From IMG/VR virus record IMGVR_UViG_3300009499_000172: DNA of 32,253 nt; one strand, written 5' to 3'. Shown here piece after piece: positions 8 through 29,374 of this stretch. This DNA comes from a virus. The number at the start of each line of letters is the position of its first letter. Within the stretch, counting starts at the first letter, position 1. Made by a program: the position numbers and the translations under genes. The notes beneath the pieces are model-generated. The model ran no database searches. It saw only the letters and a program-made list of their open reading frames with translations, and was not told the DNA's origin.

Positions 8-286
8 TCATCGGTCATGTTGCATATTCACTGCAATATACTGTTCTCTTAAACGATTTCTTTCAGAAGCAAGCTCATCTGTGTAGTTCATCCATCGTGC
101 ATACAGCTGAAAGAATGGTGGTACGTCATCTGGCCTAGAGCATGAGGGACAACCATTCATCGGAATAGAGCCGTGCTCTGGCGACCACGGATACGACCAG
201 CTGTATCCACAAGAACAACACTCGTAATCGTCATTATTGATGTCGTGTTTACTTAACATTGCATGAAGAGGGACTTGCACCCTCAC
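8..286 (-). CDS. hypothetical small Cys-rich protein (CCSCG...CPSC motif, possible zinc ribbon)
   Basis: ORF in the minus-strand gene tiling. Cys cluster visible in the translation. No family recognised. Confidence 0.3.
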   Translation of the reverse strand: MRVQVPLHAMLSKHDINNDDYECCSCGYSWSYPWSPEHGSIPMNGCPSCSRPDDVPPFFQLYARWMNYTDELASERNRLREQYIAVNMQHDR

Positions 287-304
287 GTCATTTGACAGAG
301 GATT

Positions 305-796
305 TTAAGTTCTCCGCGTCTGCTGTTTCCGCCATTCATGCGCTTGGATTCGTCTATAAAGACTAATGATTCTATCGATATCGATGTCGCTTACTTTTCG
401 CTTCTTCAATACAGACTTAATTATGTTTTTTGAATTTGAGATGAGAATGTTGATTGCTTCTTCCCACACACGGTCATCTGATGCATTATTCAAACGAGCG
501 CAGGCCTGCTTGTAAAGCTTACGCTTAAGCTTTCGATACATACGCATCGACCTGATGCTCTTATCGACGGCTTTAACGTGCATTAGAACATCACGCGGTG
601 AGTCATTGTAGAGTGTTGGAAATGGTACAGTGTATGACACATCAAGGTTCAACAAGTACAGTATGACATTAACAAGCCGTCTTTTGTAAGGAGAAGATTC
701 ATGTATGGATTTGATGAAAGCATCCACGTGGATAATCTCCAAGTTGTTTACTAAAGCCGGCGTAGGCTTTTTCAACACCACAATAATTAATAACAA
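305..796 (-). CDS. hypothetical protein
   Basis: 163-aa minus-strand ORF in a co-oriented gene array. No recognisable motifs. Confidence 0.35.
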   Translation of the reverse strand: MLLIIVVLKKPTPALVNNLEIIHVDAFIKSIHESSPYKRRLVNVILYLLNLDVSYTVPFPTLYNDSPRDVLMHVKAVDKSIRSMRMYRKLKRKLYKQACARLNNASDDRVWEEAINILISNSKNIIKSVLKKRKVSDIDIDRIISLYRRIQAHEWRKQQTRRT

Positions 797-4893: not shown

Positions 4894-4935
4894 ATCGCTA
4901 CATTAACACGACTTCAACGATGCATGCACAACGTA

Positions 4936-7453: not shown

Positions 7454-7491
7454 ATTCAACGTCTTTATCCACATGATTAACGTGGTGTGTA
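7454..7491 (-). repeat. 38-nt conserved intergenic element, copy B (33/38 identical to 9323-9360)
   Basis: Plus strand attcaacgtctttatccacatgattaacgtggtgtgta. Minus-strand reading: TACACACCACGTTAATCATGTGGATAAAGACGTTGAAT. It overlaps the stop of ORF 7477..7683 and ends 18 nt before the RNA ligase start (ATG 7433-7435). Confidence 0.6.
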
Positions 7492-7683
7492 TGTGACCCA
7501 ATCACGAGGAGCCATCCTACTAAGGAGCTCCCTGATGTCAAGCAACACCTCGAGCTGGAGGCGTGCAGCGCACATGACATCATCATGCGAATCATGGTTC
7601 AATCGCTTGACGCGACCATACTCTGGGTCATACTTTCCCTCAAGTGACTCAAGTTCACCGATGATATCATCCTTGCTTCTCAT
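7477..7683 (-). CDS. hypothetical protein
   Basis: 68-aa ORF. Its 3' end is embedded in the repeated element. Confidence 0.3.
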   Translation of the reverse strand: MRSKDDIIGELESLEGKYDPEYGRVKRLNHDSHDDVMCAARLQLEVLLDIRELLSRMAPRDWVTYTPR

Positions 7684-7994
7684 TAGCGACGCCTCCTCTT
7701 CTTTCTTGCTCTCGTGTCATCATTTCCGTCTATGAACTCAGGATGCTTCTTTTGCACCCAAGCAACGAATTTTTGTATATCGTCATTCTCAAGCAATCTT
7801 TCGACAGATGAAAACTCTTTTTCAAGCTGTTTTTCGCTGAACGTGTGATGAATCTTGCTGTGGCACACACGATGCATGTGTTCTGTCTCAGTGCCACCAC
7901 GTGAGACAGGAATGAGATGATGCCTATCGATTGACGGCCCAGCAATCATCTCACGCCCGCATAGCGGGCAGCTTCCAAGCGATGTGCTCATCAA
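7683..7994 (-). CDS. HNH endonuclease
   Basis: CPLCGR...DRHHLIPVSRGG...HRVCHSKIH is an HNH/zinc-finger motif. The tail is basic. Confidence 0.7.
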   Translation of the reverse strand: MMSTSLGSCPLCGREMIAGPSIDRHHLIPVSRGGTETEHMHRVCHSKIHHTFSEKQLEKEFSSVERLLENDDIQKFVAWVQKKHPEFIDGNDDTRARKKRRRR

Positions 7995-8227
7995 CCATTC
8001 TCTTTGGCCTGAGGAGACAACCTGATGAAATGAACGTTACAGGTTGCACCGATGGCAGTCCCAGCGATGACATCACCCGCGACGAACCATCGACCGATGT
8101 CTGCATCTTTCTCAGAAAGCGTCGTGGAGCGATAGACGTCGCCAGCATCGATTAAATCTCCAGGATTAAGATGCTTCACATCGCACAAAACACGGGTGAA
8201 AGGATTAACCATGGTTTCATTGTCCAT
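7991..8227 (-). CDS. hypothetical protein
   Basis: 78-aa ORF with a degenerate copy of the repeated element immediately upstream. Confidence 0.35.
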   Translation of the reverse strand: MDNETMVNPFTRVLCDVKHLNPGDLIDAGDVYRSTTLSEKDADIGRWFVAGDVIAGTAIGATCNVHFIRLSPQAKENG

Positions 8228-8273
8228 ATTGACAATCTATCACATTGATTAATACGTTTTCACAGCAGATGCA

Positions 8274-8531
8274 TCACTGCGCTCTAATCAGAGGACATAA
8301 CCCGATGAAAACGCCCTGCACGTATCCCTTACAACCGCATGACATGCATGCAGTCAGGCCACCGTCGCTTATGGAGCTTGAGACGCCATGATGTAACGAC
8401 GGATGATGACCGCAACCATCATTGATGCAATACACTATGCCAAGAGCCTCAGCCTGCGCCTGCGTCATCTGCACGATGATGATGCCATCATCAAGAGGCT
8501 CTTGACGTTTAACCCTGGGTAGCCTTTTCAT
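8274..8531 (-). CDS. hypothetical Cys/His-rich small protein
   Basis: CINDGCGHHPSLHH...CMSCGCKGY clusters. Confidence 0.3.
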   Translation of the reverse strand: MKRLPRVKRQEPLDDGIIIVQMTQAQAEALGIVYCINDGCGHHPSLHHGVSSSISDGGLTACMSCGCKGYVQGVFIGLCPLIRAQ

Positions 8532-8579
8532 GGCCCTTTATACAAATCTAGAGATGAAGAAATCACTTCATCACATCGT

Positions 8580-8771
8580 CTATTTGTATTTTTTTACATC
8601 TTTGGCAATGCTTCTCTCTAAGCAGTGCAGGCTTTTACGAAGATGAATCTCAATTTCATTGAACACACTGAACCACTCACTGAGATGCGCTGCAGACTCA
8701 GAGATGTTGCTCTGCTTTATGTCATCAAACGCTTTTTTGAGCTTGCTGTTTTCGTCATTCATCTTCAACAC
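8580..8771 (-). CDS. hypothetical protein
   Basis: 63-aa ORF. Confidence 0.25.
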   Translation of the reverse strand: MLKMNDENSKLKKAFDDIKQSNISESAAHLSEWFSVFNEIEIHLRKSLHCLERSIAKDVKKYK

Positions 8772-9028
8772 AATACATTTAAAACATCATCTACAGTCGC
8801 AATGACATCATGATAAAACTTCGACATGGTCTCGAAGTATGTGTATGCTCCATCATCATCAAGCATCAGCATCACGGGTGTATCCACCCAACTTAGGTCT
8901 AGATGATGGATGCGATGAAGGCCCATAAGGTCGCGTGCATCATTACGATGACACTCTCTGATACAGAGATATATCTTTTGTTCGTTGACTGCAACAAGCA
9001 TTCCTGGCTGAAGTCTGATTGACATCAC
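8765..9028 (-). CDS. hypothetical protein
   Basis: 87-aa ORF. Confidence 0.3.
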   Translation of the reverse strand: MMSIRLQPGMLVAVNEQKIYLCIRECHRNDARDLMGLHRIHHLDLSWVDTPVMLMLDDDGAYTYFETMSKFYHDVIATVDDVLNVLC

Positions 9029-9235
9029 TCACTCCTCAGAGTAGTCGAATAGCTCATCCCTGAAGGCTATCGCAGGGTCGCCCGTTCTCAACACCTGCAC
9101 ACGATACTGCTCACGTGCAGACGGTGATTTGAGACCATCCCTCGGAAGCGCCATGACCTTCACAAAATCATTGACGCGCTCTCCAGTCTCATCATCGACA
9201 TGGACCCAAACAAGCTGCTGACCGACAGAAAACAT
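9029..9235 (-). CDS. hypothetical protein
   Basis: 68-aa ORF with GGAG about 6 nt upstream of the ATG. Confidence 0.35.
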   Translation of the reverse strand: MFSVGQQLVWVHVDDETGERVNDFVKVMALPRDGLKSPSAREQYRVQVLRTGDPAIAFRDELFDYSEE

Positions 9236-9275
9236 ACGTTCTCCATAATCACGAGGAGTGATTCCAATTCATTGA

Positions 9276-9303
9276 ATTATCAAGGGTATAATACCATGTT
9301 CAA
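9276..9303 (-). promoter_or_regulatory. candidate sigma70-like promoter (TTGAAC-N16-GATAAT) for gene 9029..9235
   Basis: Minus strand TTGAACATGGTATTATACCCTTGATAAT. It overlaps a half-copy of the repeated element (CATGTTCAACGTG, plus 9295-9307). Confidence 0.3.
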
Positions 9304-9322
9304 CGTGTTTAAGTGCAACACA

Positions 9323-9360
9323 AATCAACGTCGTTATCCACATGTTCAACGTGATGTGTA
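9323..9360 (-). repeat. 38-nt conserved intergenic element, copy A
   Basis: Plus strand aatcaacgtcgttatccacatgttcaacgtgatgtgta. It ends immediately 3' of the stop of ORF 9361..9606. Confidence 0.6.
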
Positions 9361-9606
9361 TCATCGCCGAAAGATTAATCTGATGCTTGCATCACCGACG
9401 TGCCCAACGACGTTCCATCCGATGGCGATGAAATGTTCGACGATGATTGTGCATCGTGCAGAGTCGAGTGGAAGCACAAGCACCCTTCCATCGATGAGCT
9501 CGTTCGGTGCCCATGTTGTCTCAAGCCATGCAGTCGCATCAGACACGATAGAAGACATCGACGGTCTCATAGTTGGATACAACGCATCCATCTCTTCTGG
9601 TGTCAT
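9361..9606 (-). CDS. hypothetical protein
   Basis: 81-aa ORF. Confidence 0.3.
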   Translation of the reverse strand: MTPEEMDALYPTMRPSMSSIVSDATAWLETTWAPNELIDGRVLVLPLDSARCTIIVEHFIAIGWNVVGHVGDASIRLIFRR

Positions 9607-9866
9607 TGCTCTTTCTTCTTTGTCCTGCGCTTCATGTCGATGTAAAGCCTATCAGTCTGCTGCTTTGAACCGATGACGACGAATGACACGTATCCGCTGT
9701 TGACGAGCGTACGCTGCACAAGCCTGCTTGTGAGAGGTGAGCCACCCGTGAAATCGAACGAAACGAATGATTCGTTCTTCGCTGTCGCCTCACGGATGCG
9801 GTCTGGGATGGTGCGAACGATTTTCATCGCATCTTCACTCGGGTCTTCATCAAGCAACCTAGACAT
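9603..9866 (-). CDS. hypothetical protein
   Basis: 87-aa ORF. Confidence 0.3.
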   Translation of the reverse strand: MSRLLDEDPSEDAMKIVRTIPDRIREATAKNESFVSFDFTGGSPLTSRLVQRTLVNSGYVSFVVIGSKQQTDRLYIDMKRRTKKKEQ

Positions 9867-10137
9867 CGTCTATCCTTCTAACAATATCCAGGTTGCTTGA
9901 GTACGTAATCGCCCTCGACGTGTCAAACAGAACGATGACGAGGTCATGGTTTATTGTCGGGTCGCCGTCGATGATGATGCCGAGCTTGTTCTTTGAGATT
10001 GGTGCAGTGCTAGATGAATAGTCTGCTGCCAACAACGGCGTCTCATGTGTGCTTGAGTCGATATGAGCATGGCCCACAACAATGAGTGGAGCAATCGCTT
10101 GTACAAGGTCTCCGCTTGAAAATGCCACCATGTTCAT
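9859..10137 (-). CDS. hypothetical protein
   Basis: 92-aa ORF. Confidence 0.3.
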   Translation of the reverse strand: MNMVAFSSGDLVQAIAPLIVVGHAHIDSSTHETPLLAADYSSSTAPISKNKLGIIIDGDPTINHDLVIVLFDTSRAITYSSNLDIVRRIDDV

Positions 10138-10172
10138 AATAATGCATCAGGGTCGGTATCGTCAATGTGAGA

Positions 10173-10586
10173 CTAATCTTCTTTAAGCTCTAAAGGTTCA
10201 AATGCATCCCAATCGAATGTTAGTGCATCTCCACAGATGATGTTGTGTTCAACAATCTTCACCCATTGTTCATTTCTTTCTTCATTGGAGCTTTCTTCTG
10301 CTTGTTTTAAGAGCCTTTCACGACATTCATCGATATTGTCTTGCATGATGTCAATACCGAATGTGGTGTTGAGGGCCTGTGTGGGTGTTAGGCCGGCTTC
10401 TATCTTTCGCTTGATGGCTTCGACAAGAAAGTTACCGTTGCCACAGCCTGTAATGTCGCCGATTGTCCATGTTGCGTCTGACCAATATGCACAAGGCCAC
10501 ATGTCTAGCATTTGGTGAACTATTCTTATGGGAGTAAAAACTTCACCAAGTTGAAATGCACGAAGTTTTGTTCTCATGTAAACCAT
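10173..10586 (-). pseudogene. truncated N6-adenine MTase-like ORF (motifs X, I, II, III only; no NPPY/F motif IV)
   Basis: GEVFTPIRIV (motif X), DITGCGNGNFLVEA (motif I), FGIDIMQD (motif II) and GDALTFDW (motif III), then a stop. Nothing downstream supplies the catalytic motif IV. It overlaps the upstream MTase stop by 13 nt. Confidence 0.45.
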
Positions 10587-11950
10587 TCTTTCATTTGCAT
10601 TTCTCGCTCATCAACGTCGTCAGACAATAGATGAGATATATCAGGAATTACACCATGTAAAGTAGTGATTGGTCTAACACCTTGATGAAATGCAACAATT
10701 AGTTTCTTAATGATACTATGCTTAATAAACCACTCATGTTTTTCAACATTACGAACAGCAACAACAAAAACTCTACCTCCACCCACGTCTAAACAAGCAC
10801 AATTATCAATTTTTTCACTATAAATTAGTTCTTGAAACGGTACTTTTTCTCTTTTGCCCATAAAACCGTGATATAATACAACACTTTGATATCCTTCATT
10901 TCGTTTTTTTGATAGAAAATTTTCAAATTTTTTATTATGTTTACATTTTTTTTGCTCTAAGACAAACATAGTTGTACCACTTCCACCATCCCACAAAATA
11001 TGCTTATCTTCAACATTAAGAATGTCTTTCTTATTTCGAAATTCACGAGCTTGTTTTTGAGTCTTGTATGAAACACATAAAGATGTACATTCACTAGTTT
11101 CGATTTTTTTTGGGTCAAACAATTCGATTGCACCGTACTTGTTGACTAACAACGCAGCTTTTTCTTGAATCACAACATCTAGTGTGTTATCTAAACACAA
11201 CAACCCATCAATAATGGGTCTTTCTTTATTATTAAGTAAATACTTTGTTGCTATTTGCCCATTCTTTTTAAGAGAAAGTGTCAATATCTCAACATCAATA
11301 CCTTTCCACTCTGGAGGTCGCTGAATTATGTTAATTTTAATTGAATCACCAGCTTCAGCTATTACTTTTTTCCTAAGAGCTGAGCTAGCATTCATAGCCC
11401 AATTTCTAGGCATTAGTTGCACCAACATCCCAGAGTTAGATAAGCTATCTATAGCCTTAATTATAAATTCTTCATAAAGATTTTCTTTACCAGAAATAGA
11501 AAATGGTGGATTTCCAGCAACAATGTCATACTTCACACTATCATTATAACTCAAAAAGTCCTGTTTGATTATAATGTTTTCGACGTCAATATCGACAAGC
11601 TTTGCTAGAGTATATAGTGCTTGCCGTGCACGATGTAGCTGTGCTTCATCGACATCAAACCCACGTATTCTAGCAAAACATTTGCTAAGTCTTTTTTTAT
11701 CATCTGGAATGGCGTGTCGCATCCCATAGTACATCCGTCGTACTGCCTCAAGTAAGAAACCACCCGAACCACAAGTTGGATCAAGCAGCGTTTTAGACGG
11801 ATTGCACCAAAAATTTCTCTCTATTCTCATCATCTTTCTGATAATATAGAGTGGTGTGGTGGTATCAGTACTATCTGAGAATTGCTGCTCTCTGAATAAA
11901 GATGCACTCTTAATCTTTTGATGGACCCGAAAATGATCTTGATAGTTCAT
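10574..11950 (-). CDS. N6-adenine DNA methyltransferase, gamma class (Eco57I/TaqI-like), with C-terminal target-recognition region
   Basis: Motif X TTPLYIIRKMM, motif I LLDPTCGSGGFLLEA, motif IV DIVAGNPPF. The gene is very AT-rich (local GC about 30-35% versus about 45-50% in the flanks). ATGA overlap with the upstream helicase gene. Confidence 0.85.
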   Translation of the reverse strand: MNYQDHFRVHQKIKSASLFREQQFSDSTDTTTPLYIIRKMMRIERNFWCNPSKTLLDPTCGSGGFLLEAVRRMYYGMRHAIPDDKKRLSKCFARIRGFDVDEAQLHRARQALYTLAKLVDIDVENIIIKQDFLSYNDSVKYDIVAGNPPFSISGKENLYEEFIIKAIDSLSNSGMLVQLMPRNWAMNASSALRKKVIAEAGDSIKINIIQRPPEWKGIDVEILTLSLKKNGQIATKYLLNNKERPIIDGLLCLDNTLDVVIQEKAALLVNKYGAIELFDPKKIETSECTSLCVSYKTQKQAREFRNKKDILNVEDKHILWDGGSGTTMFVLEQKKCKHNKKFENFLSKKRNEGYQSVVLYHGFMGKREKVPFQELIYSEKIDNCACLDVGGGRVFVVAVRNVEKHEWFIKHSIIKKLIVAFHQGVRPITTLHGVIPDISHLLSDDVDEREMQMKEWFT

Positions 11951-14421
11951 TTATCCCGCGCATCCCGCGCATTGATCTGGCTGTTGATCTCATCAATTCG
12001 CTTCTGCAATGCACTTTTGACGATGAAGTTATTCTCTATCCACTTCTTAAAGATCAAATATTGGCACTTCGTCATCGTCTCAAACAGCTTCTGGTGTTCT
12101 GGTGATATATCGATGAAGTCACGAACATAATGAATGGTGACACGTTTATAGGTACAACCAATGAATTGGGGAAGACGTCTCAAGACATCTTTCGCCTTCT
12201 TAATCAATTCATTAATCCTTATTTTCTCAGCTGCTTTTTCATCAAATGACTGAATTATTCCAGCTACACGCTCATTTGATTTACCTGTCTCAACACCATT
12301 ACATGCGATAGAAAGCTCTCTGGATTTTGGGGCTGTTTTCTTCGAAGCTGCAGGCAGATTATCTGATGTATCTAATATCTGTAATGCATTTTTCTCATTG
12401 AACTCTGAACTAGATACTGATTGTAGCGTTTTGCCATTTTTACAAGAACTAACATGACCTTGAGCAAGTGTTTTCATATCCTTCTCAGACAAAGGCTGGA
12501 GTTCGAAACTTGAACCGCTAGCATTTATGAGATTTAGACAACTCATGAGCTTAACGCACTTACCTTCAGTGCTTTGATCAGAGGCCTTGGTGTAACGAGC
12601 AAGGTCAAAACAGACTTTGATATTTCTCTCAGGGTGCAAATCGATGATGAGCCTCTTGCTATCTTTTCTGTTCGACTTACCCGGTGACATCGCCCTAAAC
12701 CAAACCTGGACGTTCTTTTCAGCAGTCATGACTGACCATGCTACGATGACACATGTGAGGTTCCAGAATGTCGCTCCCAATCCGTACCTACCGCAGGTTA
12801 AGATAATCGTCGTTTTATCATAATGCTCATTATATCGCAGTTTGTAGTTAACATCGTCGATAGATGGACAATCGCTGCCCGCGACCGAGAGACATTCAAC
12901 ATTTGGTATATTGTCCTCTAGCAAAGCCTTCATCGCCTTACATTGTGCGACCTCATCGAGTGTAATCAATATTGTTTTATGTTTCTGTAACTCTTTCCCT
13001 AATGTCCAGACGTCTCTGGAAGGTCTCAGAAGTCTCAGAGGTTCAGGCTCACTGCTTTTGCCAAAAAGACGCATAAACAGTTTTTTGATGTCATCCGAAT
13101 GCTCAAACACATCGTCGTTCTTCTTCATGACGAAGAACTTCTGCAATGAAAAATGACCCTCGTCGTCAAAGCGATTATGTGCTTCAACAAGTTCGTTAGT
13201 GAATTTGCATGTTACAAGAGTAGATTTATCATAGAGTTTATCCTGACGTGCAGCTTCAATATCATACTCATACTTCTCGCTTGTATTCTTGTCAAATGTA
13301 GCAATCTCCCTAAAGTTTGTACCTGATGAATGGATGATAAAGGGAGGGCTTTCTCGTTCTTCTAGAGACTTAATTAGACCAGCGATGTTAGTGTACGCAT
13401 CCTCATCATCTATCTTATCGATCCCGATATGGCTTTCGTCGGCGATCACAACTTCTGAGTTATAATCATGCGTGATATATTCCTGAATATCAAGAGATGC
13501 ATCTGCCTTCTGTCCTGACACAAAAAGCAGGACACGTAATCCTTTGCTTTCTGCTAAACGAACATCTTCCTTTACATCATCAAGTGACTTACCAGCTGCC
13601 TTTATGAACGCATATCCAGACTCTTCTGCATCACGCTTCCATGATGCCTCAATGCTTGTCGGAACAACAGCAATGACCAACAACCTCTTGACCCCCGAAC
13701 TCGATGCAAAGACTAAACATACTAGTGTCTTACCTGATTGTGGTACAACGCATAAAATGAATTTTTTTTTACTTCCGTTGTACGCTTGTCGCATCTTTTC
13801 GAGAGCAGACTTCTGCCATTCACGTAATTTTAGGTGCTCTTTGACTTTAGCACTACACAATTTTGAATATGCATAAGCTTTTGCTTGCTCGACCATAAGG
13901 TCTTGTAAGCGATCGAAACCATATGCATGTGATTTCTCTTTATCGATTAAGAGTGAATATGGAAAGAAAGTACGCAACTGTTCTGTACCAGCTTTATTGT
14001 AGTCTTCAGTGTTAGAACGATTTTCTTGTTCTCTGATAAGAAAACAACCATTCTTCTTAAGATGTTCGATGAATGGCTTATCGGGGTTACTACATGATTT
14101 AGCATCTTTTGCGATCTTTTTAGGAAAAAGAAAAATTCCAATTGCTTTACCACCCGGTGAAGCTGTGTGATAATTCTTAAATCTTTTGTGCACGTTTTCA
14201 GACATGCCTACCTTAAAATCTACAGCAAGCTTATCATCGGTGCTAGCCGCTGACTTAAAGTCATTAACGTCGGCACGGGCATAAATTACATCATGTGTTT
14301 CATATATTGAAGACCCTTCTTTAACTAAATCCCATCCTTTGCTCCATTCGAGCTCTTCACACGATCCATCCTCATTGAAACGAAGAAATAGTGGGTTTGT
14401 GTCAAAAATTTGTTCATTCAT
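11947..14421 (-). CDS. SF2 helicase/ATPase with N-terminal GIY-YIG-like (T5orf172/MUG113-type) domain; putative restriction-like nuclease-helicase
   Basis: N-terminal region KVGMSENVHKRFKNYHTASP...EQLRTFFPYS resembles the T5orf172 domain. Walker A VVPQSGKT, Walker B/DExH VVIADESH, SGT-like motif IIHSSGTNF. Translationally coupled to the MTase. Confidence 0.65.
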   Translation of the reverse strand: MNEQIFDTNPLFLRFNEDGSCEELEWSKGWDLVKEGSSIYETHDVIYARADVNDFKSAASTDDKLAVDFKVGMSENVHKRFKNYHTASPGGKAIGIFLFPKKIAKDAKSCSNPDKPFIEHLKKNGCFLIREQENRSNTEDYNKAGTEQLRTFFPYSLLIDKEKSHAYGFDRLQDLMVEQAKAYAYSKLCSAKVKEHLKLREWQKSALEKMRQAYNGSKKKFILCVVPQSGKTLVCLVFASSSGVKRLLVIAVVPTSIEASWKRDAEESGYAFIKAAGKSLDDVKEDVRLAESKGLRVLLFVSGQKADASLDIQEYITHDYNSEVVIADESHIGIDKIDDEDAYTNIAGLIKSLEERESPPFIIHSSGTNFREIATFDKNTSEKYEYDIEAARQDKLYDKSTLVTCKFTNELVEAHNRFDDEGHFSLQKFFVMKKNDDVFEHSDDIKKLFMRLFGKSSEPEPLRLLRPSRDVWTLGKELQKHKTILITLDEVAQCKAMKALLEDNIPNVECLSVAGSDCPSIDDVNYKLRYNEHYDKTTIILTCGRYGLGATFWNLTCVIVAWSVMTAEKNVQVWFRAMSPGKSNRKDSKRLIIDLHPERNIKVCFDLARYTKASDQSTEGKCVKLMSCLNLINASGSSFELQPLSEKDMKTLAQGHVSSCKNGKTLQSVSSSEFNEKNALQILDTSDNLPAASKKTAPKSRELSIACNGVETGKSNERVAGIIQSFDEKAAEKIRINELIKKAKDVLRRLPQFIGCTYKRVTIHYVRDFIDISPEHQKLFETMTKCQYLIFKKWIENNFIVKSALQKRIDEINSQINARDARDK

Positions 14422-14451
14422 AGCTTTATTTCTTAAGTTCTACACAGACAG

Positions 14452-14489
14452 ATGAAAGAGATGACATCAGAAGACATCATCTCTTTCAT
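14452..14489. repeat. perfect 13-bp inverted repeat (ATGAAAGAGATGA / TCATCTCTTTCAT) with 12-nt loop
   Basis: Read directly from the sequence. It lies in the 88-nt spacer between the RadA-like gene and the AT-rich helicase-MTase island. No flanking U-tract on either strand. Confidence 0.7.
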
Positions 14490-14509
14490 AACCGACAAGA
14501 CTTAATAGC

Positions 14510-15734: not shown

Positions 15735-15791
15735 CAGTGACCACTATAACACGACATCATGATTGAAAACACAACTGATATCTACAACAAA

Positions 15792-28001: not shown

Positions 28002-28268
28002 TCACTCGTCTGCATCAAAGATATCAACACGTTTCTTTTTCTTCGGCTTTTCAACGATAATACTCTGTTCAACGTTATGTTGCGTTTCAGCCAAACGTCT
28101 CGACTCAATGATTGCCCTGACAGCAACGACATCAGCTGCATCAGGCACAAGCCCACGAAATGCACACCTGGGCGCAAAATCGTCGATGCTGTTGATGTCG
28201 TTGTCGGCGACCCATTCCTCGAGCTTCTGCTCTGTTCGTAAAAGATAAACGCTTAGTTTCATACCCAT
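28002..28268 (-). CDS. hypothetical protein
   Basis: 88-aa ORF with a basic stretch KPKKKKR. Confidence 0.3.
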   Translation of the reverse strand: MGMKLSVYLLRTEQKLEEWVADNDINSIDDFAPRCAFRGLVPDAADVVAVRAIIESRRLAETQHNVEQSIIVEKPKKKKRVDIFDADE

Positions 28269-28280
28269 GTTGATAGATAC

Positions 28281-28541
28281 TCAGACGTTCGTCTTTGATA
28301 CCCTTGTGTCGTATATCTCATGAAGATATGAAACAACGAGGTTCTGAAATGATTGTGACGCTGCCAGCTCGGCTGGGTCGCCTGTTAGGCCGTACGTACC
28401 CATCAACGCGATCGCAAACTTTTCCATGACCCTCAAAACAACGTTCCTCACGGTCGAATGACCACATGGCTTATCGTTAAGCGTCATGATGTCTGCTATC
28501 ATCCTGTAGTCCATCCCTTCACCCATATCATCAATTCTCAT
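28281..28541 (-). CDS. small protein with sigma-70 region-4.2-like helix-turn-helix
   Basis: [37 protein letters not shown] resembles sigma70 DYTLEEVGKQFDVTRERIRQIEAKAL. The ATG overlaps the sigma gene stop (ATGA). Confidence 0.4.
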
Positions 28542-29374
28542 ATTGCGACCCCCGTCGATGCATTCTCAAGCATTCGAAGCTCTTTGTGTGTGATTGGAAA
28601 CCTGACATCATCTGTCGGGTCCTGCACGATTCCAAACCTAAGCACGAGGATTGCAGTCTCACGTGGAGTCAGTGAATCCAACACCTGTGATATTTTCGAT
28701 ATAAGCTCTTTTTTGTCGAACATGTCAAACGGAGACAGAGAGTCATCATCTGGAATGACATCACGCAACGTCTTTATTGACCCAGCGTCATGCGACCTAC
28801 CCACCTCAGCGTCGATTGATACGACGTATGGTGTTCCGCTCAATGCCGTCGATACAGTCGTCTCTGTGATTCCAAGTAACTCAGCAAGCTCAGCACGTGT
28901 GGGCTCTTGACCATGAAGTTCAATGAACTCATCACGTGCTGAGCTTAGCTCAGCAAGGACAGAGCCATTCCTACCTGGGACGCGAATTGTTCGACCCTGG
29001 TTCGCGATGAACCGACCGACGGCCTGACGAATCCACCACGATGCATACGTTGAAAACCTGAAGCCGCGGCGCCAGTCGAACTTATCAACAGCCTTCATCA
29101 GACCGACATTACCCTCAGCAATCAGGTCTTCAAGGTCACAACCCCTGTTCTGTTGTGTCTTTGCGATTGAAACGACCAATCTGAGATTGGACTCAATCAT
29201 TTTTTGCTTGGCACGTTTTTGTTCGTGCAATGACACGGGTTGCGTGCTTCCGTCTGGAAGCACCAACGTTCCCTCAATCTTCTGTGAAAGCTCAATCTCT
29301 TGCTCTTTTGTCAAGAGCTTGCGGCGGCCTATCTGCTTCAAGTAGATGCTAAGGCCCTCTGGCGATTTTCTCAC
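28538..29374 (-). CDS. sigma-70 family RNA polymerase sigma factor (regions 1.2, 2, 3 and 4; no region 1.1)
   Basis: [54 protein letters not shown] matches regions 2.1-2.4 almost residue for residue. Region 4.1 [15 protein letters not shown], region 4.2 [18 protein letters not shown] start with AGGAG 6 nt upstream. Confidence 0.85.

What the first reader, a model, noticed from the sequence alone, without database searches (positions are those of the whole stretch)
7454..9360. Conserved 38-nt intergenic element in two strong copies, a degenerate third copy and a half-copy, all ahead of minus-strand genes
Minus-strand copies TACACACCACGTTAATCATGTGGATAAAGACGTTGAAT (7491-7454) and TACACATCACGTTGAACATGTGGATAACGACGTTGATT (9360-9323) are 33/38 identical. 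A degenerate copy (GTGAAAACGTATTAATCAATGTGATAGATTGTCAAT) lies at 8263-8228, and a half-copy CACGTTGAACATG at 9307-9295. Each lies 0-50 nt upstream of a gene start (RNA ligase; ORF 7991..8227; ORF 9029..9235) and overlaps or abuts the stop of the preceding gene. The internal ACGTTRA duplication and the TTGAAC/GATAA segments suggest a family of phage promoters or regulatory sites, possibly recognised by the element's own sigma factor (28538-29374).
Basis: seen in the sequence. Interest (0 to 1): 0.55.

Follow-up and report, generated by a model that had tools for sequence, protein, structure and literature searches.

The report
Duplicated operator-like site in phage
A 38-base intergenic sequence occurs twice in this uncultured phage because one copy was recently pasted in front of the RNA-ligase gene; it looks like a protein-binding (operator-type) site next to an ordinary promoter, not a family of phage-specific promoters.

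Summary
The two strong copies (7491-7454 and 9360-9323, minus strand, 33/38 identical) and the exact 13-mer half-copy (9307-9295) are real. The "degenerate third copy" (8263-8228) is at background level. The promoter-family reading fails. Two-thirds (49.5 kb) of a 74.7-kb scaffold of the same phage holds only these sites, all within 1.9 kb. Neither copy contains a TAnnnT -10 hexamer, yet the phage sigma factor keeps the canonical -10-reading residues. Copy 1 is a ~27-nt insertion absent from the syntenic sister lineage, where the upstream gene runs straight into the ligase start. The unit shared by all three sites is CACGTT-N-AACATG, a 5/6 palindrome whose variable base is the dyad centre. One unit sits in the spacer of a sigma-70-like promoter candidate (GTTGCAC-N19-TATTAT), abutting its -10. 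Another lies 46 bp upstream. Best reading: operator-type sites for an unidentified dimeric DNA-binding protein, with one copy recently moved by short-patch conversion or template switching. Both full copies also carry a perfect DnaA-box 9-mer (TGTGGATAA = TTATCCACA), an untested lead. No binder was identified. Function is inferred, not shown. Interest is modest.

The parts
9323..9360 (-). Copy 2 of the 38-nt element. It begins directly after the TGA of the 81-aa ORF and ends 3 nt before the -35-like box of the promoter candidate.
   Evidence: Within the clade it varies only at element positions 7 (T/C/A) and 14 (G/T). The L006 orthologue is about 58% identical, with only ACGTT and TAACGACG kept.
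7454..7491 (-). Copy 1 of the element. It supplies the stop codon of the 68-aa ORF and ends 18 nt before the RNA-ligase ATG.
   Evidence: Invariant in 14 clade members plus L151.
7461..7487 (-). The ~27 nt (CACCACGTTAATCATGTGGATAAAGAC; boundaries uncertain by a few nt) that are present here and absent from the sister lineage L006. This is the inserted core of copy 1.
   Evidence: MAFFT gaps. L006 sequence read.
9341..9353 (-). O_A: 13-mer CACGTT-G-AACATG, 5 of 6 palindromic pairs. The centre base is polymorphic (G/T).
9295..9307 (-). It lies in the spacer of the promoter candidate, 1 nt from its -10 hexamer.
   Evidence: Not conserved in L006 (CATAATAAACATG), although its flanks are.
7472..7484 (-). 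O_C: 13-mer CACGTT-A-ATCATG inside copy 1, 4 of 6 palindromic pairs.
9334..9342 (-). TGTGGATAA, the reverse complement of the consensus DnaA box TTATCCACA (copy 2).
   Evidence: Read. The 9-mer occurs only in the two elements in 49.5 kb. Consensus taken from PMC8203912 and bioRxiv 10.1101/866236.
7465..7473 (-). TGTGGATAA, the DnaA-box 9-mer (copy 1).
9323..9331 (-). Second ACGTTGATT box of copy 2, 21 nt after the first ACGTT. It is a half-site only (1 of 6 palindromic pairs).
7454..7462 (-). Second ACGTTGAAT box of copy 1, 21 nt after the first ACGTT.
9288..9319 (-). Promoter candidate P9319: GTTGCAC (9319-9313), 19 nt, TATTAT (9293-9288). An alternative -10, GATAAT, lies at 9281-9276.
   Evidence: The -10 region and the leader are conserved in L006. 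The -35-like box is the most polymorphic stretch within the clade.
9236..9287 (-). AT-rich (about 33-37% GC), dyad-rich leader. It contains the perfect palindrome AATTCAATGAATT (9278-9266), the hairpin AATCAC-TCCTC-GTGATT (9263-9247), a GGAG Shine-Dalgarno (9244-9241), and then the ATG at 9235.

Best explanation
The functional unit is a 13-bp dyad, CACGTT-N-AACATG, not the whole 38-mer. I read it as an operator-type binding site for an unidentified sequence-specific, probably dimeric, DNA-binding protein. In the copy-2 intergenic region two identical dyads lie 46 bp apart with a half-site between them (ACGTT starts are spaced 21 and 25 bp). The downstream dyad, O_B, occupies the spacer of a sigma-70-like promoter candidate and abuts its -10 hexamer. 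A bound protein there would occlude RNA polymerase at the promoter of the 68-aa gene operon. The upstream dyad, inside copy 2, would act as an auxiliary site. Copy 1 is a young ectopic copy of the upstream site and its immediate flanks. About 27 nt were pasted between the 68-aa gene and the RNA-ligase gene in this clade only, most likely by short-patch gene conversion or template switching guided by microhomology (ACACCA on the left, GAAT on the right). There it could put the ligase under the same regulator as a roadblock, or it could do nothing. Shown: the sequences, their copy number, the dyad symmetry, the insertion polymorphism, and the position relative to promoter-like boxes. Inferred: protein binding, repression, and the mechanism of duplication.
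For: The 13-mer common to all three sites is 5/6 palindromic. Only 0.64% of 13-mers in the window reach that, and it is the only one of 37 exactly repeated 13-mers that does. The only polymorphic base inside it, which also differs in copy 1 (G/T/A), is the dyad centre. O_B lies 1 nt from the TATTAT of a GTTGCAC-N19-TATTAT site, whose -10 and leader are conserved in L006. The copy-2 intergenic region holds 4 of the 14 strong dyads found in all intergenic DNA and drops to 33% GC. The sites are all confined to one 1.9-kb stretch in 49.5 kb, which fits a local regulatory region rather than a genome-wide signal. Copy 1 is an insertion relative to L006 and is fixed in the clade. No RNA structure is shared by the copies and there is no Rfam match, which points to DNA-level function.
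Against: No DNA-binding protein could be identified. There are no HTH, RHH or other DNA-binding Pfam, PHROG or NCBIfam hits in any window ORF. AF2 of two neighbouring small proteins was uninformative, and the library search gave nothing useful. In the sister clade L006 neither dyad is conserved (2/6 and 4/6 pairs) and L006 has no repeat of its own, so there is no cross-clade constraint on the site. Copy 1 has no recognisable promoter downstream of it. The promoter candidate is itself only a consensus match from a pattern I derived from these same intergenic regions. That pattern is not strongly over-represented (7 sense, 5 antisense, shuffle mean 2.6). Too few substitutions exist to show selection: the chance that the variable positions avoid the half-sites is about 0.46.
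Confidence: 0.4

Rival explanations
1. Copy 1, and perhaps the half-copy, is a functionally neutral by-product of recombination or repair: a templated short-patch insertion copied from the copy-2 region. On this view the repeat says nothing about regulation.
For: Copy 1 is absent from L006 and from more distant relatives, where the upstream gene abuts or overlaps the ligase start. Similarity between the two loci stops sharply at 37-38 nt. The 87% identity, including what would be spacer positions, fits recency rather than constraint. The region is a hotspot of cassette exchange, with two HNH endonuclease genes nearby. There is no promoter downstream of copy 1.
Against: Three separate sites in this clade carry the same dyad. 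One sits exactly in a promoter spacer, where L006 has 4 clustered differences in otherwise conserved flanks. Copy 1 is fixed and invariant in 15 sampled contigs, although its flanks are invariant too. Neutrality does not explain the dyad symmetry.
Confidence: 0.25
2. One reading: copies 1 and 2 are promoters, for example TACACA, 16 nt, GATAA(C/A) with TGTG upstream. They would be read by host RNA polymerase with the phage sigma factor (28538-29374), and duplication gave the ligase its own promoter.
For: Both copies lie upstream of genes in the sense orientation. TACACA-N16-GATAAM matches TTGACA-N17-TATAAT at 8 of 12 positions. The sigma factor's region 4.2 recognition helix is diverged and truncated (THKELRM against TRERIRQ), so its -35 preference could be unusual. 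The ACGTTG word is enriched on the sense strand of intergenic DNA (8 of 29, 0 antisense).
Against: Neither copy has a TAnnnT hexamer, while the sigma factor's -10-reading residues are canonical. An 8/12 match is below the scan threshold and common by chance. There are only two copies in 66% of the genome. Other intergenic regions share a different motif conserved with L006, GTTGTG...TAnnnT, often ending 6 nt before the ATG. The L006 orthologue of copy 2 has TTGACA but nothing -10-like 16-18 nt downstream. The ACGTTG enrichment (p=3e-4) does not survive correction for 4096 hexamers, and half of the hits are the elements themselves.
Confidence: 0.12
3. A DnaA-box and iteron module. The perfect DnaA box, bracketed by phased ACGTTGA repeats next to an AT-rich dyad-rich stretch, would be the phage replication origin or a site where host DnaA regulates transcription. 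Copy 1 would be a second DnaA site.
For: TGTGGATAA is the exact complement of the consensus TTATCCACA (PMC8203912; bioRxiv 10.1101/866236). It occurs only in the two elements in 49.5 kb, against 0.38 expected. The chance that a given 38-mer contains it is about 2e-4 before allowing for post hoc motif choice. ACGTT boxes are spaced 21 and 25 bp, and the adjacent 45 nt are 33% GC. A RadA/DnaB-like ATPase and a helicase are encoded 1-6 kb upstream. Phage cis sites with DnaA boxes have a precedent in the T5 iss region (bioRxiv 10.1101/866236).
Against: Because copy 1 derives from copy 2, this is one independent occurrence. There is a single box per site, not a cluster. The box is absent from the half-copy and from L006 (CCTTGTTAA). 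There is no GC-skew inflection. The host and its DnaA-box preference are unknown.
Confidence: 0.1
4. An RNA-level signal of the nut/boxB type. The transcript would form a small hairpin YCACGU-NNNNC-AUGUGG (6 bp, 5-nt loop) recognised by an antiterminator or translational regulator. Two copies per genome would resemble lambda nutL and nutR.
For: Both copies can form the hairpin (the MFE for copy 1). Differences between the copies fall in the loop (positions 14, 16) or at the closing pair (C-G against U.G; position 7).
Against: Fold z-scores are +0.15 and -0.16, and the MFE of copy 2 is a different structure. The half-copy cannot form the hairpin, and the L006 orthologue does not conserve the pairs. 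There is no Rfam hit. The chance that 5 variable positions avoid the inner stem is about 0.2. The same invariance is explained by the DNA dyad.
Confidence: 0.05

Closest known systems
Lambda-type tripartite operators (OR1-3 and OL1-3; own knowledge)
   Same: Imperfect palindromes of 13-17 bp, two to three per cluster, with centres about two helical turns apart. One overlaps a promoter core. There are two clusters about 2 kb apart flanking a block of small genes.
   Different: No repressor or Cro-like gene is recognisable. All flanking genes are co-directional, with no divergent promoters. The second cluster (copy 1) has no promoter and is a recent insertion. Binding is untested.
Stoperators of Cluster A mycobacteriophages (L5, Bxb1; PMC6550527, PMC9283540)
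   Same: 13-bp sites in short intergenic gaps, at or over stop codons, oriented with transcription. Some lie in promoters and others away from promoters, where a bound repressor blocks elongation. This is a possible role for copy 1.
   Different: Stoperators are asymmetric and are bound by a monomer. They number 20-30 per genome and go with an identifiable immunity repressor. Here the site is dyad-symmetric, there are 3 sites in 66% of the genome, and no repressor was found.
SAS/ESAS repeats of Cluster K mycobacteriophages (PMC3203893)
   Same: Short conserved repeats upstream of gene starts, in one orientation, with inverted-repeat components and unknown function.
   Different: SAS overlaps the ribosome-binding site immediately before the start codon and occurs many times per genome, conserved across subclusters. 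The present element is 18 and 87 nt from the starts, occurs twice, and is clade-specific.
DnaA boxes in dnaA promoters, oriC, plasmid and phage origins and the T5 iss region (PMC8203912; bioRxiv 10.1101/866236)
   Same: An exact 9-mer match to TTATCCACA in both copies, with an adjacent AT-rich stretch and phased repeats at copy 2.
   Different: There is one box per site rather than a cluster. There is no evidence of origin function. The host is unknown.
Phage-specific promoter families (T7-type 23-bp promoters, T4 middle/MotA and late promoters, SPO1 gp28 promoters; own knowledge)
   Same: Highly similar sequences in sense orientation ahead of genes, in a phage that encodes its own sigma factor.
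   Different: Such families recur many times per genome and contain the element read by the polymerase or sigma factor. Here there are two copies, no -10-type hexamer, and one copy is missing in the sister lineage.

Membership tests
sigma-70-family promoter (host or phage sigma) | -10 hexamer with A at -11 and T at -7 (TAnnnT / TATAAT-like) | tested here: not met
   Copies 1 and 2 contain no TAnnnT anywhere. The best candidates, GATAAA and GATAAC, lack T-7. The sigma factor's region 2.3/2.4 is canonical.
sigma-70-family promoter (host or phage sigma) | -35-like hexamer 16-19 nt upstream of the -10 | tested here: inconclusive
   TACACA (4/6 to TTGACA) lies 16 nt before GATAAM, giving 8/12 overall. 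This is below the scan threshold. The sigma factor's region 4.2 is diverged, so its preference is unknown.
phage-specific promoter family | Recurrence ahead of many transcription units across the genome | tested here: not met
   Two full copies in 49.5 kb (66%) of scaffold_18, and none in 11.7 kb beyond the window on its own contig.
phage-specific promoter family | Transcription start at a fixed distance downstream | not testable with these tools
   No transcript data are available.
repressor operator (lambda-type) | Dyad symmetry of the site | tested here: met
   CACGTTGAACATG has 5 of 6 complementary pairs against a 0.64% background. Copy 1's site has 4 of 6.
repressor operator (lambda-type) | Site overlaps the core of a promoter | tested here: inconclusive
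   O_B lies between the -35-like and -10 boxes of P9319, but that promoter is only predicted. O_A and O_C do not overlap a predicted core.
repressor operator (lambda-type) | Cognate DNA-binding regulator encoded by the element | tested here: not met
   No DNA-binding domain in any window ORF. AF2 and the library search were uninformative. About 34% of the genome was not seen.
stoperator (Cluster A mycobacteriophages) | 13-bp asymmetric site, 20-30 per genome, one orientation relative to transcription | tested here: not met
   The site is symmetric and only 3 were found. Definition taken from PMC6550527.
SAS/ESAS (Cluster K mycobacteriophages) | 13-bp repeat immediately upstream of start codons, overlapping the RBS, many per genome | tested here: not met
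   The elements end 18 and 87 nt from the starts, and there are two copies. Definition taken from PMC3203893.
DnaA box | 9-mer matching TTATCCACA / TT(A/T)TNCACA | tested here: met
   TGTGGATAA at 7473-7465 and 9342-9334.
DnaA box | Bound by host DnaA | not testable with these tools
   The host is unknown and no binding assay is possible.
iteron-type replication origin | Array of at least 3-4 phased direct repeats plus an AT-rich unwinding region, near an initiator gene, with a strand-composition switch | tested here: inconclusive
   Three ACGTTGA boxes are spaced 21 and 25 bp, and an adjacent stretch is 33% GC. However, only two are full sites, no initiator was recognised, and GC skew shows no inflection.
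nut/boxB-type RNA signal | Conserved stable hairpin shared by the copies, plus boxA | tested here: not met
   z-scores are about 0, the MFE structures differ between the copies, and there is no Rfam match.
miniature mobile element (MITE-like) | Terminal inverted repeats, target-site duplication, many dispersed copies | tested here: not met
   No terminal inverted repeats are visible at the 38-nt ends. There are two copies only, both within 1.9 kb. A metagenome scan found only chance matches.

The most novel reading that the evidence does not exclude
The element is a host-DnaA-recruiting module. A perfect DnaA box is bracketed by phased ACGTTGA repeats beside a 33%-GC, dyad-rich stretch. Copy 2 would be the phage's origin of replication, or a DnaA-controlled early promoter region. 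Copy 1 would be a freshly spawned second DnaA site in front of the RNA-ligase gene. That would show how a phage of an uncultured freshwater host rewires a gene into the host's replication-initiator regulon by a 27-nt patch.
Probability: 0.1. Interest if true: 0.5.

Novelty: new member of a known kind. Interest (0 to 1): 0.25.

Why it matters
If the operator reading is right, this is a clean natural example of a cis-regulatory site being copied as a ~27-nt patch to a new gene within a phage population. The before and after states are both preserved in sister lineages. It would also give a handle (a 13-bp dyad) for fishing out the regulator of an uncultured, widely sampled freshwater phage lineage. 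Otherwise it is an ordinary clade-specific intergenic repeat. Its main practical value is negative: it should not be annotated as a phage-sigma promoter family.

Tried and rejected
1. Deposited phages and IMG/VR. Megablast of the region found nothing. An IMG/VR motif scan and a ligase-based locus scan found nothing. Protein-level hits are only 25-42% identical.

2. Metagenome scan. A scan with ACGTTNNNCATGTGGATAA returned 119 single chance hits. This scan was wasted.

3. RNA element or terminator. Folds have z-scores of about 0 and there is no Rfam hit.

4. Paralogous upstream genes as the source of the repeat. The two upstream proteins show no similarity.

5. The 'third copy'. It is at background level.

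6. Host inference from the phage GroEL. The phage GroELs form their own clade and their cellular relatives come from many phyla.

7. Search for a binder. Pfam, PHROGs and NCBIfam on essentially all window ORFs gave nothing. AF2 of the 85-aa protein was unusable (pLDDT 41). The 60-aa protein is a plain helical hairpin. HMMER against 1.8 billion representatives found only the L006 orthologue and giant Cys-rich repeat proteins.

8. Lost lookups. One contig lookup returned only the window's own truncated contig and one found no record.

9. GC skew as an origin indicator. It is monotonic.

10. ACGTTG as a general upstream word. The enrichment is suggestive but does not survive multiple testing, and the word is also common in coding DNA as Val-Glu codons.
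Full report
CONTEXT

The window is part of an uncultured tailed phage assembled many times from metagenomes. Contigs of 65-122 kb carry it, and the window's own contig is ERZ27249619 k141_271959, 83 kb. All genes in the window are on the minus strand and GC is 47%. Recognisable products include:
- a T4 RnlA-type RNA ligase, a full-length RpoD-like sigma factor, an MVP-shoulder protein, a MoxR-like ATPase with a VWA/metallopeptidase partner, and a helicase plus N6-methyltransferase cassette;
- two HNH endonucleases;
- a RadA/DnaB-like ATPase;
- just beyond the window, GroEL, HSP20, a 5'-3' exonuclease and NUDIX.

There is no close relative among deposited phages or in IMG/VR.

THE OBSERVATION

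The 20-nt core with up to 3 mismatches hits only these two places, against 0.00 expected. A scan scoring every 38-nt window against either copy finds nothing else above 25/38 on either strand, which is what shuffles give. The half-copy is an exact repeat of the 13-mer CACGTTGAACATG, 46 nt downstream of the one in copy 2.

The 'degenerate third copy' does not hold up. It scores below 24/38 ungapped, and its gapped local score of 20 is reached by 6.4% of all 50-nt windows. In the sister genome the bases conserved at that spot are a promoter-like pair of boxes, not the element.

Copy 1 overlaps the stop of the 68-aa ORF and ends 18 nt before the ligase ATG. Copy 2 abuts the stop of the 81-aa ORF but ends 87 nt before the next start.

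COPY NUMBER

I joined overlapping loci of one 74,692-nt scaffold of the same clade and now hold positions 2482-52000, which is 66% of it. This stretch contains two full elements and three 13-mer boxes, all within 1.9 kb. The 9-mer TGTGGATAA occurs only in the two elements. A further 11.7 kb of the window's own contig beyond the window has none. A degenerate-pattern scan of JGI metagenomes gave only chance hits.

COMPARATIVE EVIDENCE

L006 is a 77-kb contig whose ligase is 79% identical. It is syntenic from the MVP-like gene to beyond the window's low end. In L006 the gene upstream of the ligase runs into the ligase start (ATGA overlap) and copy 1 is missing. The window clade has about 27 extra nucleotides, CACCACGTTAATCATGTGGATAAAGAC, and these also create the stop codon of the upstream ORF. 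More distant relatives likewise have no gap before the ligase, so the insertion is derived. It is fixed and invariant in 14 clade contigs and in a 98%-identical ligase lineage. The flanks of the insertion resemble the L006 sequence (ACACACCA against AACCAACCA on the left; GAATGAAGG against AGAAAAGAATGG on the right). The event therefore looks like a microhomology-guided patch copied from copy 2. This step is inference.

The copy-2 intergenic region is homologous in L006, but only ACGTT and TAACGACG survive within the 38 nt (about 58% identity). The half-copy is CATAATAAACATG there. In contrast, the -10 region, the leader hairpin and the Shine-Dalgarno downstream are well conserved. L006 has no repeat of its own version.

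Within the window clade, copy 2 varies only at element positions 7 (T/C/A) and 14 (G/T). The 16 nt between copy 2 and the half-copy are the most polymorphic stretch.

WHAT ORDINARY PROMOTERS LOOK LIKE HERE

Several other intergenic regions share GTTG(T/C)(G/A)N, then 19-22 nt, then TAnnnT. There are 7 sense-strand matches in the window, 6 of them intergenic, and both boxes are conserved in L006. At 4932 and at the 'third copy', the TAnnnT ends exactly 6 nt before the ATG in both genomes. This implies leaderless transcripts. The high-GC relative L008 shows a repeated ...TGGGTTACAATGGACC(C)ATG.

I derived this pattern from these same regions, and it is not strongly over-represented on its own, so I call it putative. 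One member, GTTGCAC (9319-9313), N19, TATTAT (9293-9288), lies just downstream of copy 2 and contains the half-copy in its spacer, 1 nt from the -10.

WHY THE ELEMENT IS NOT A PROMOTER FAMILY

Copies 1 and 2 contain no TAnnnT hexamer. The phage sigma factor aligns with RpoD/SigA over regions 1.2-4 and keeps the residues that read the -10 (…[11 protein letters not shown]…). Only its region 4.2 helix is diverged and C-terminally truncated. ACGTTG is enriched on the sense strand of intergenic DNA (8 of 29, none antisense). However, half of these are the elements themselves, p=3e-4 does not survive 4096 tests, and the word is also frequent in coding DNA as Val-Glu codons.

WHAT IT MOST LIKELY IS

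The unit common to all three real sites is the 13-mer. It is a 5/6 palindrome (CACGTT-G-AACATG). Only 0.64% of the window's 13-mers reach that level, and it is the only one of the 37 exactly repeated 13-mers that does. The base that varies among strains and between copies (G/T/A) is the dyad centre.

The copy-2 intergenic region also holds GGTAT-T-ATACC over the -10 and the perfect AATTCA-A-TGAATT. That makes 4 of the 14 strong dyads in all intergenic DNA, and GC falls to 33% there.

This anatomy is two identical dyads 46 bp apart with a half-site between them, one dyad sitting in a promoter spacer. It is what operator clusters look like. I therefore favour binding by an unidentified dimeric DNA-binding protein that controls the operon starting at 9235. 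Copy 1 would be a young relocated site: a possible roadblock before the ligase gene, or neutral.

No RNA structure is shared by the copies (z about 0) and Rfam has nothing.

TGTGGATAA, invariant in both copies, is the exact complement of the consensus DnaA box TTATCCACA (PMC8203912; bioRxiv 10.1101/866236). It is flanked by ACGTT boxes 21 bp apart. With the AT-rich stretch at copy 2, this also resembles an iteron and DnaA-box origin.

Several points count against this. It is a single independent occurrence, because copy 1 derives from copy 2. There is one box per site. The box is absent from the half-copy and from L006. There is no GC-skew inflection. The host is unknown. I keep it as the most novel reading that the evidence does not exclude.

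WEAKNESSES

No binder was found. No DNA-binding domain appears in any window ORF. Structure prediction of two neighbouring small proteins was uninformative, and the exhaustive HMMER search added nothing. The dyads are not conserved in the sister clade, so there is no cross-clade constraint. The promoter next to O_B is predicted only. One third of the genome was not seen. Function is therefore inferred.

VERDICT

This is a real but local and clade-specific repeat. It is best read as an operator-type site, one copy of which was recently pasted ahead of the RNA-ligase gene. The promoter-family interpretation is not supported. Interest is modest.

Noticed in passing
window 4900-4932, 8228-8263, 15743-15775, 10136-10165 (minus strand); L006 orthologues: Promoter-like boxes (GTTGTG..., about 20 nt, TAnnnT) end exactly 6 nt (8 nt at 15743) before the ATG in both the window and L006. 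The genes concerned lack Shine-Dalgarno sequences. This suggests leaderless mRNAs, a habit typical of Actinobacteria among others (own knowledge). The host is unknown.
   Followed up: partly
window 28538-29374 (-): The phage sigma factor has canonical regions 1.2-3. Its region 4.2 recognition helix is diverged (THKELRM against TRERIRQ) and the protein stops about 20 residues early, so -35 recognition may be altered or lost.
   Followed up: partly
window 28057-28075 (-): ACGTTGAACAGAGTATTAT shares ACGTTGAAC-N3-GTATTAT exactly with the half-copy plus its -10 box (expected 0.03). It is followed by CGTTGAAAA. It lies inside the 88-aa ORF, 90 nt before the 647-aa MopE-repeat gene, and could be an internal promoter or operator, or a product of codon bias (GTT-GAA = Val-Glu).
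   Followed up: partly
window 7500-7511 and 9247-9258 (-): An identical 12-mer lies near both copies: in coding sequence 9 nt before copy 1, and in the leader hairpin about 65 nt after copy 2. An 11-nt core (CCTCGTGATTG) is present at both loci in L006 too, so it predates the copy-1 insertion. Its meaning is unknown.
   Followed up: partly
window 10173-14421 (-); L002, L010, L011, L014 and others: The helicase (824 aa), N6-methyltransferase (458 aa) and 137-aa gene cassette is replaced in other strains by a single opposite-strand ORF of 165 or 249 aa (218 aa in L006). This is a strain-variable, defence or anti-defence-like island bounded by a conserved hairpin (14422-14509) and a TTGACG-N18-TATTAT site (10136-10165).
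   Followed up: no
window 17492-20155 (-): An 887-aa protein carries Major Vault Protein shoulder and repeat domains (PF11978, PF17795). It is conserved in all relatives (L006-L008) next to a RadA/DnaB-like ATPase. This is unusual for a phage.
   Followed up: no
window 260-341 (-): A tRNA-Leu (anticodon TAA) overlaps the mechanical ORFs 8-286 and 305-796, so the ends of those ORFs are probably not coding.
   Followed up: no
window 9296-9676 (+): Gene callers placed a 126-aa opposite-strand ORF across copy 2 in contigs carrying the window's copy-2 variant (L001, L015, L028, L030). In other strains, and in L006, they call the conserved 81-aa sense gene instead. The antisense ORF is probably spurious.
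   Followed up: partly
window 21903-22499 (-) and 7683-7994 (-): There are two HNH endonuclease genes. The 198-aa one is strain-variable (other strains have a 257-aa gene there). Both lie in the variable small-gene region and could drive the patchy recombination seen around the element.
   Followed up: no
L008 3072-3130, 8623-8681, 14774-14832: The high-GC relative carries three copies of a ~59-nt intergenic repeat ending ...GGCTGGGTTACAATGGACC(C)ATG. This is a candidate conserved leaderless promoter family in that phage.
   Followed up: no
window 8274-8531 (-): The 85-aa protein is Cys/His-rich. Its only relatives, besides the L006 orthologue, are giant proteins (up to 3828 aa) carrying many tandem copies of a similar module.
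   Followed up: partly
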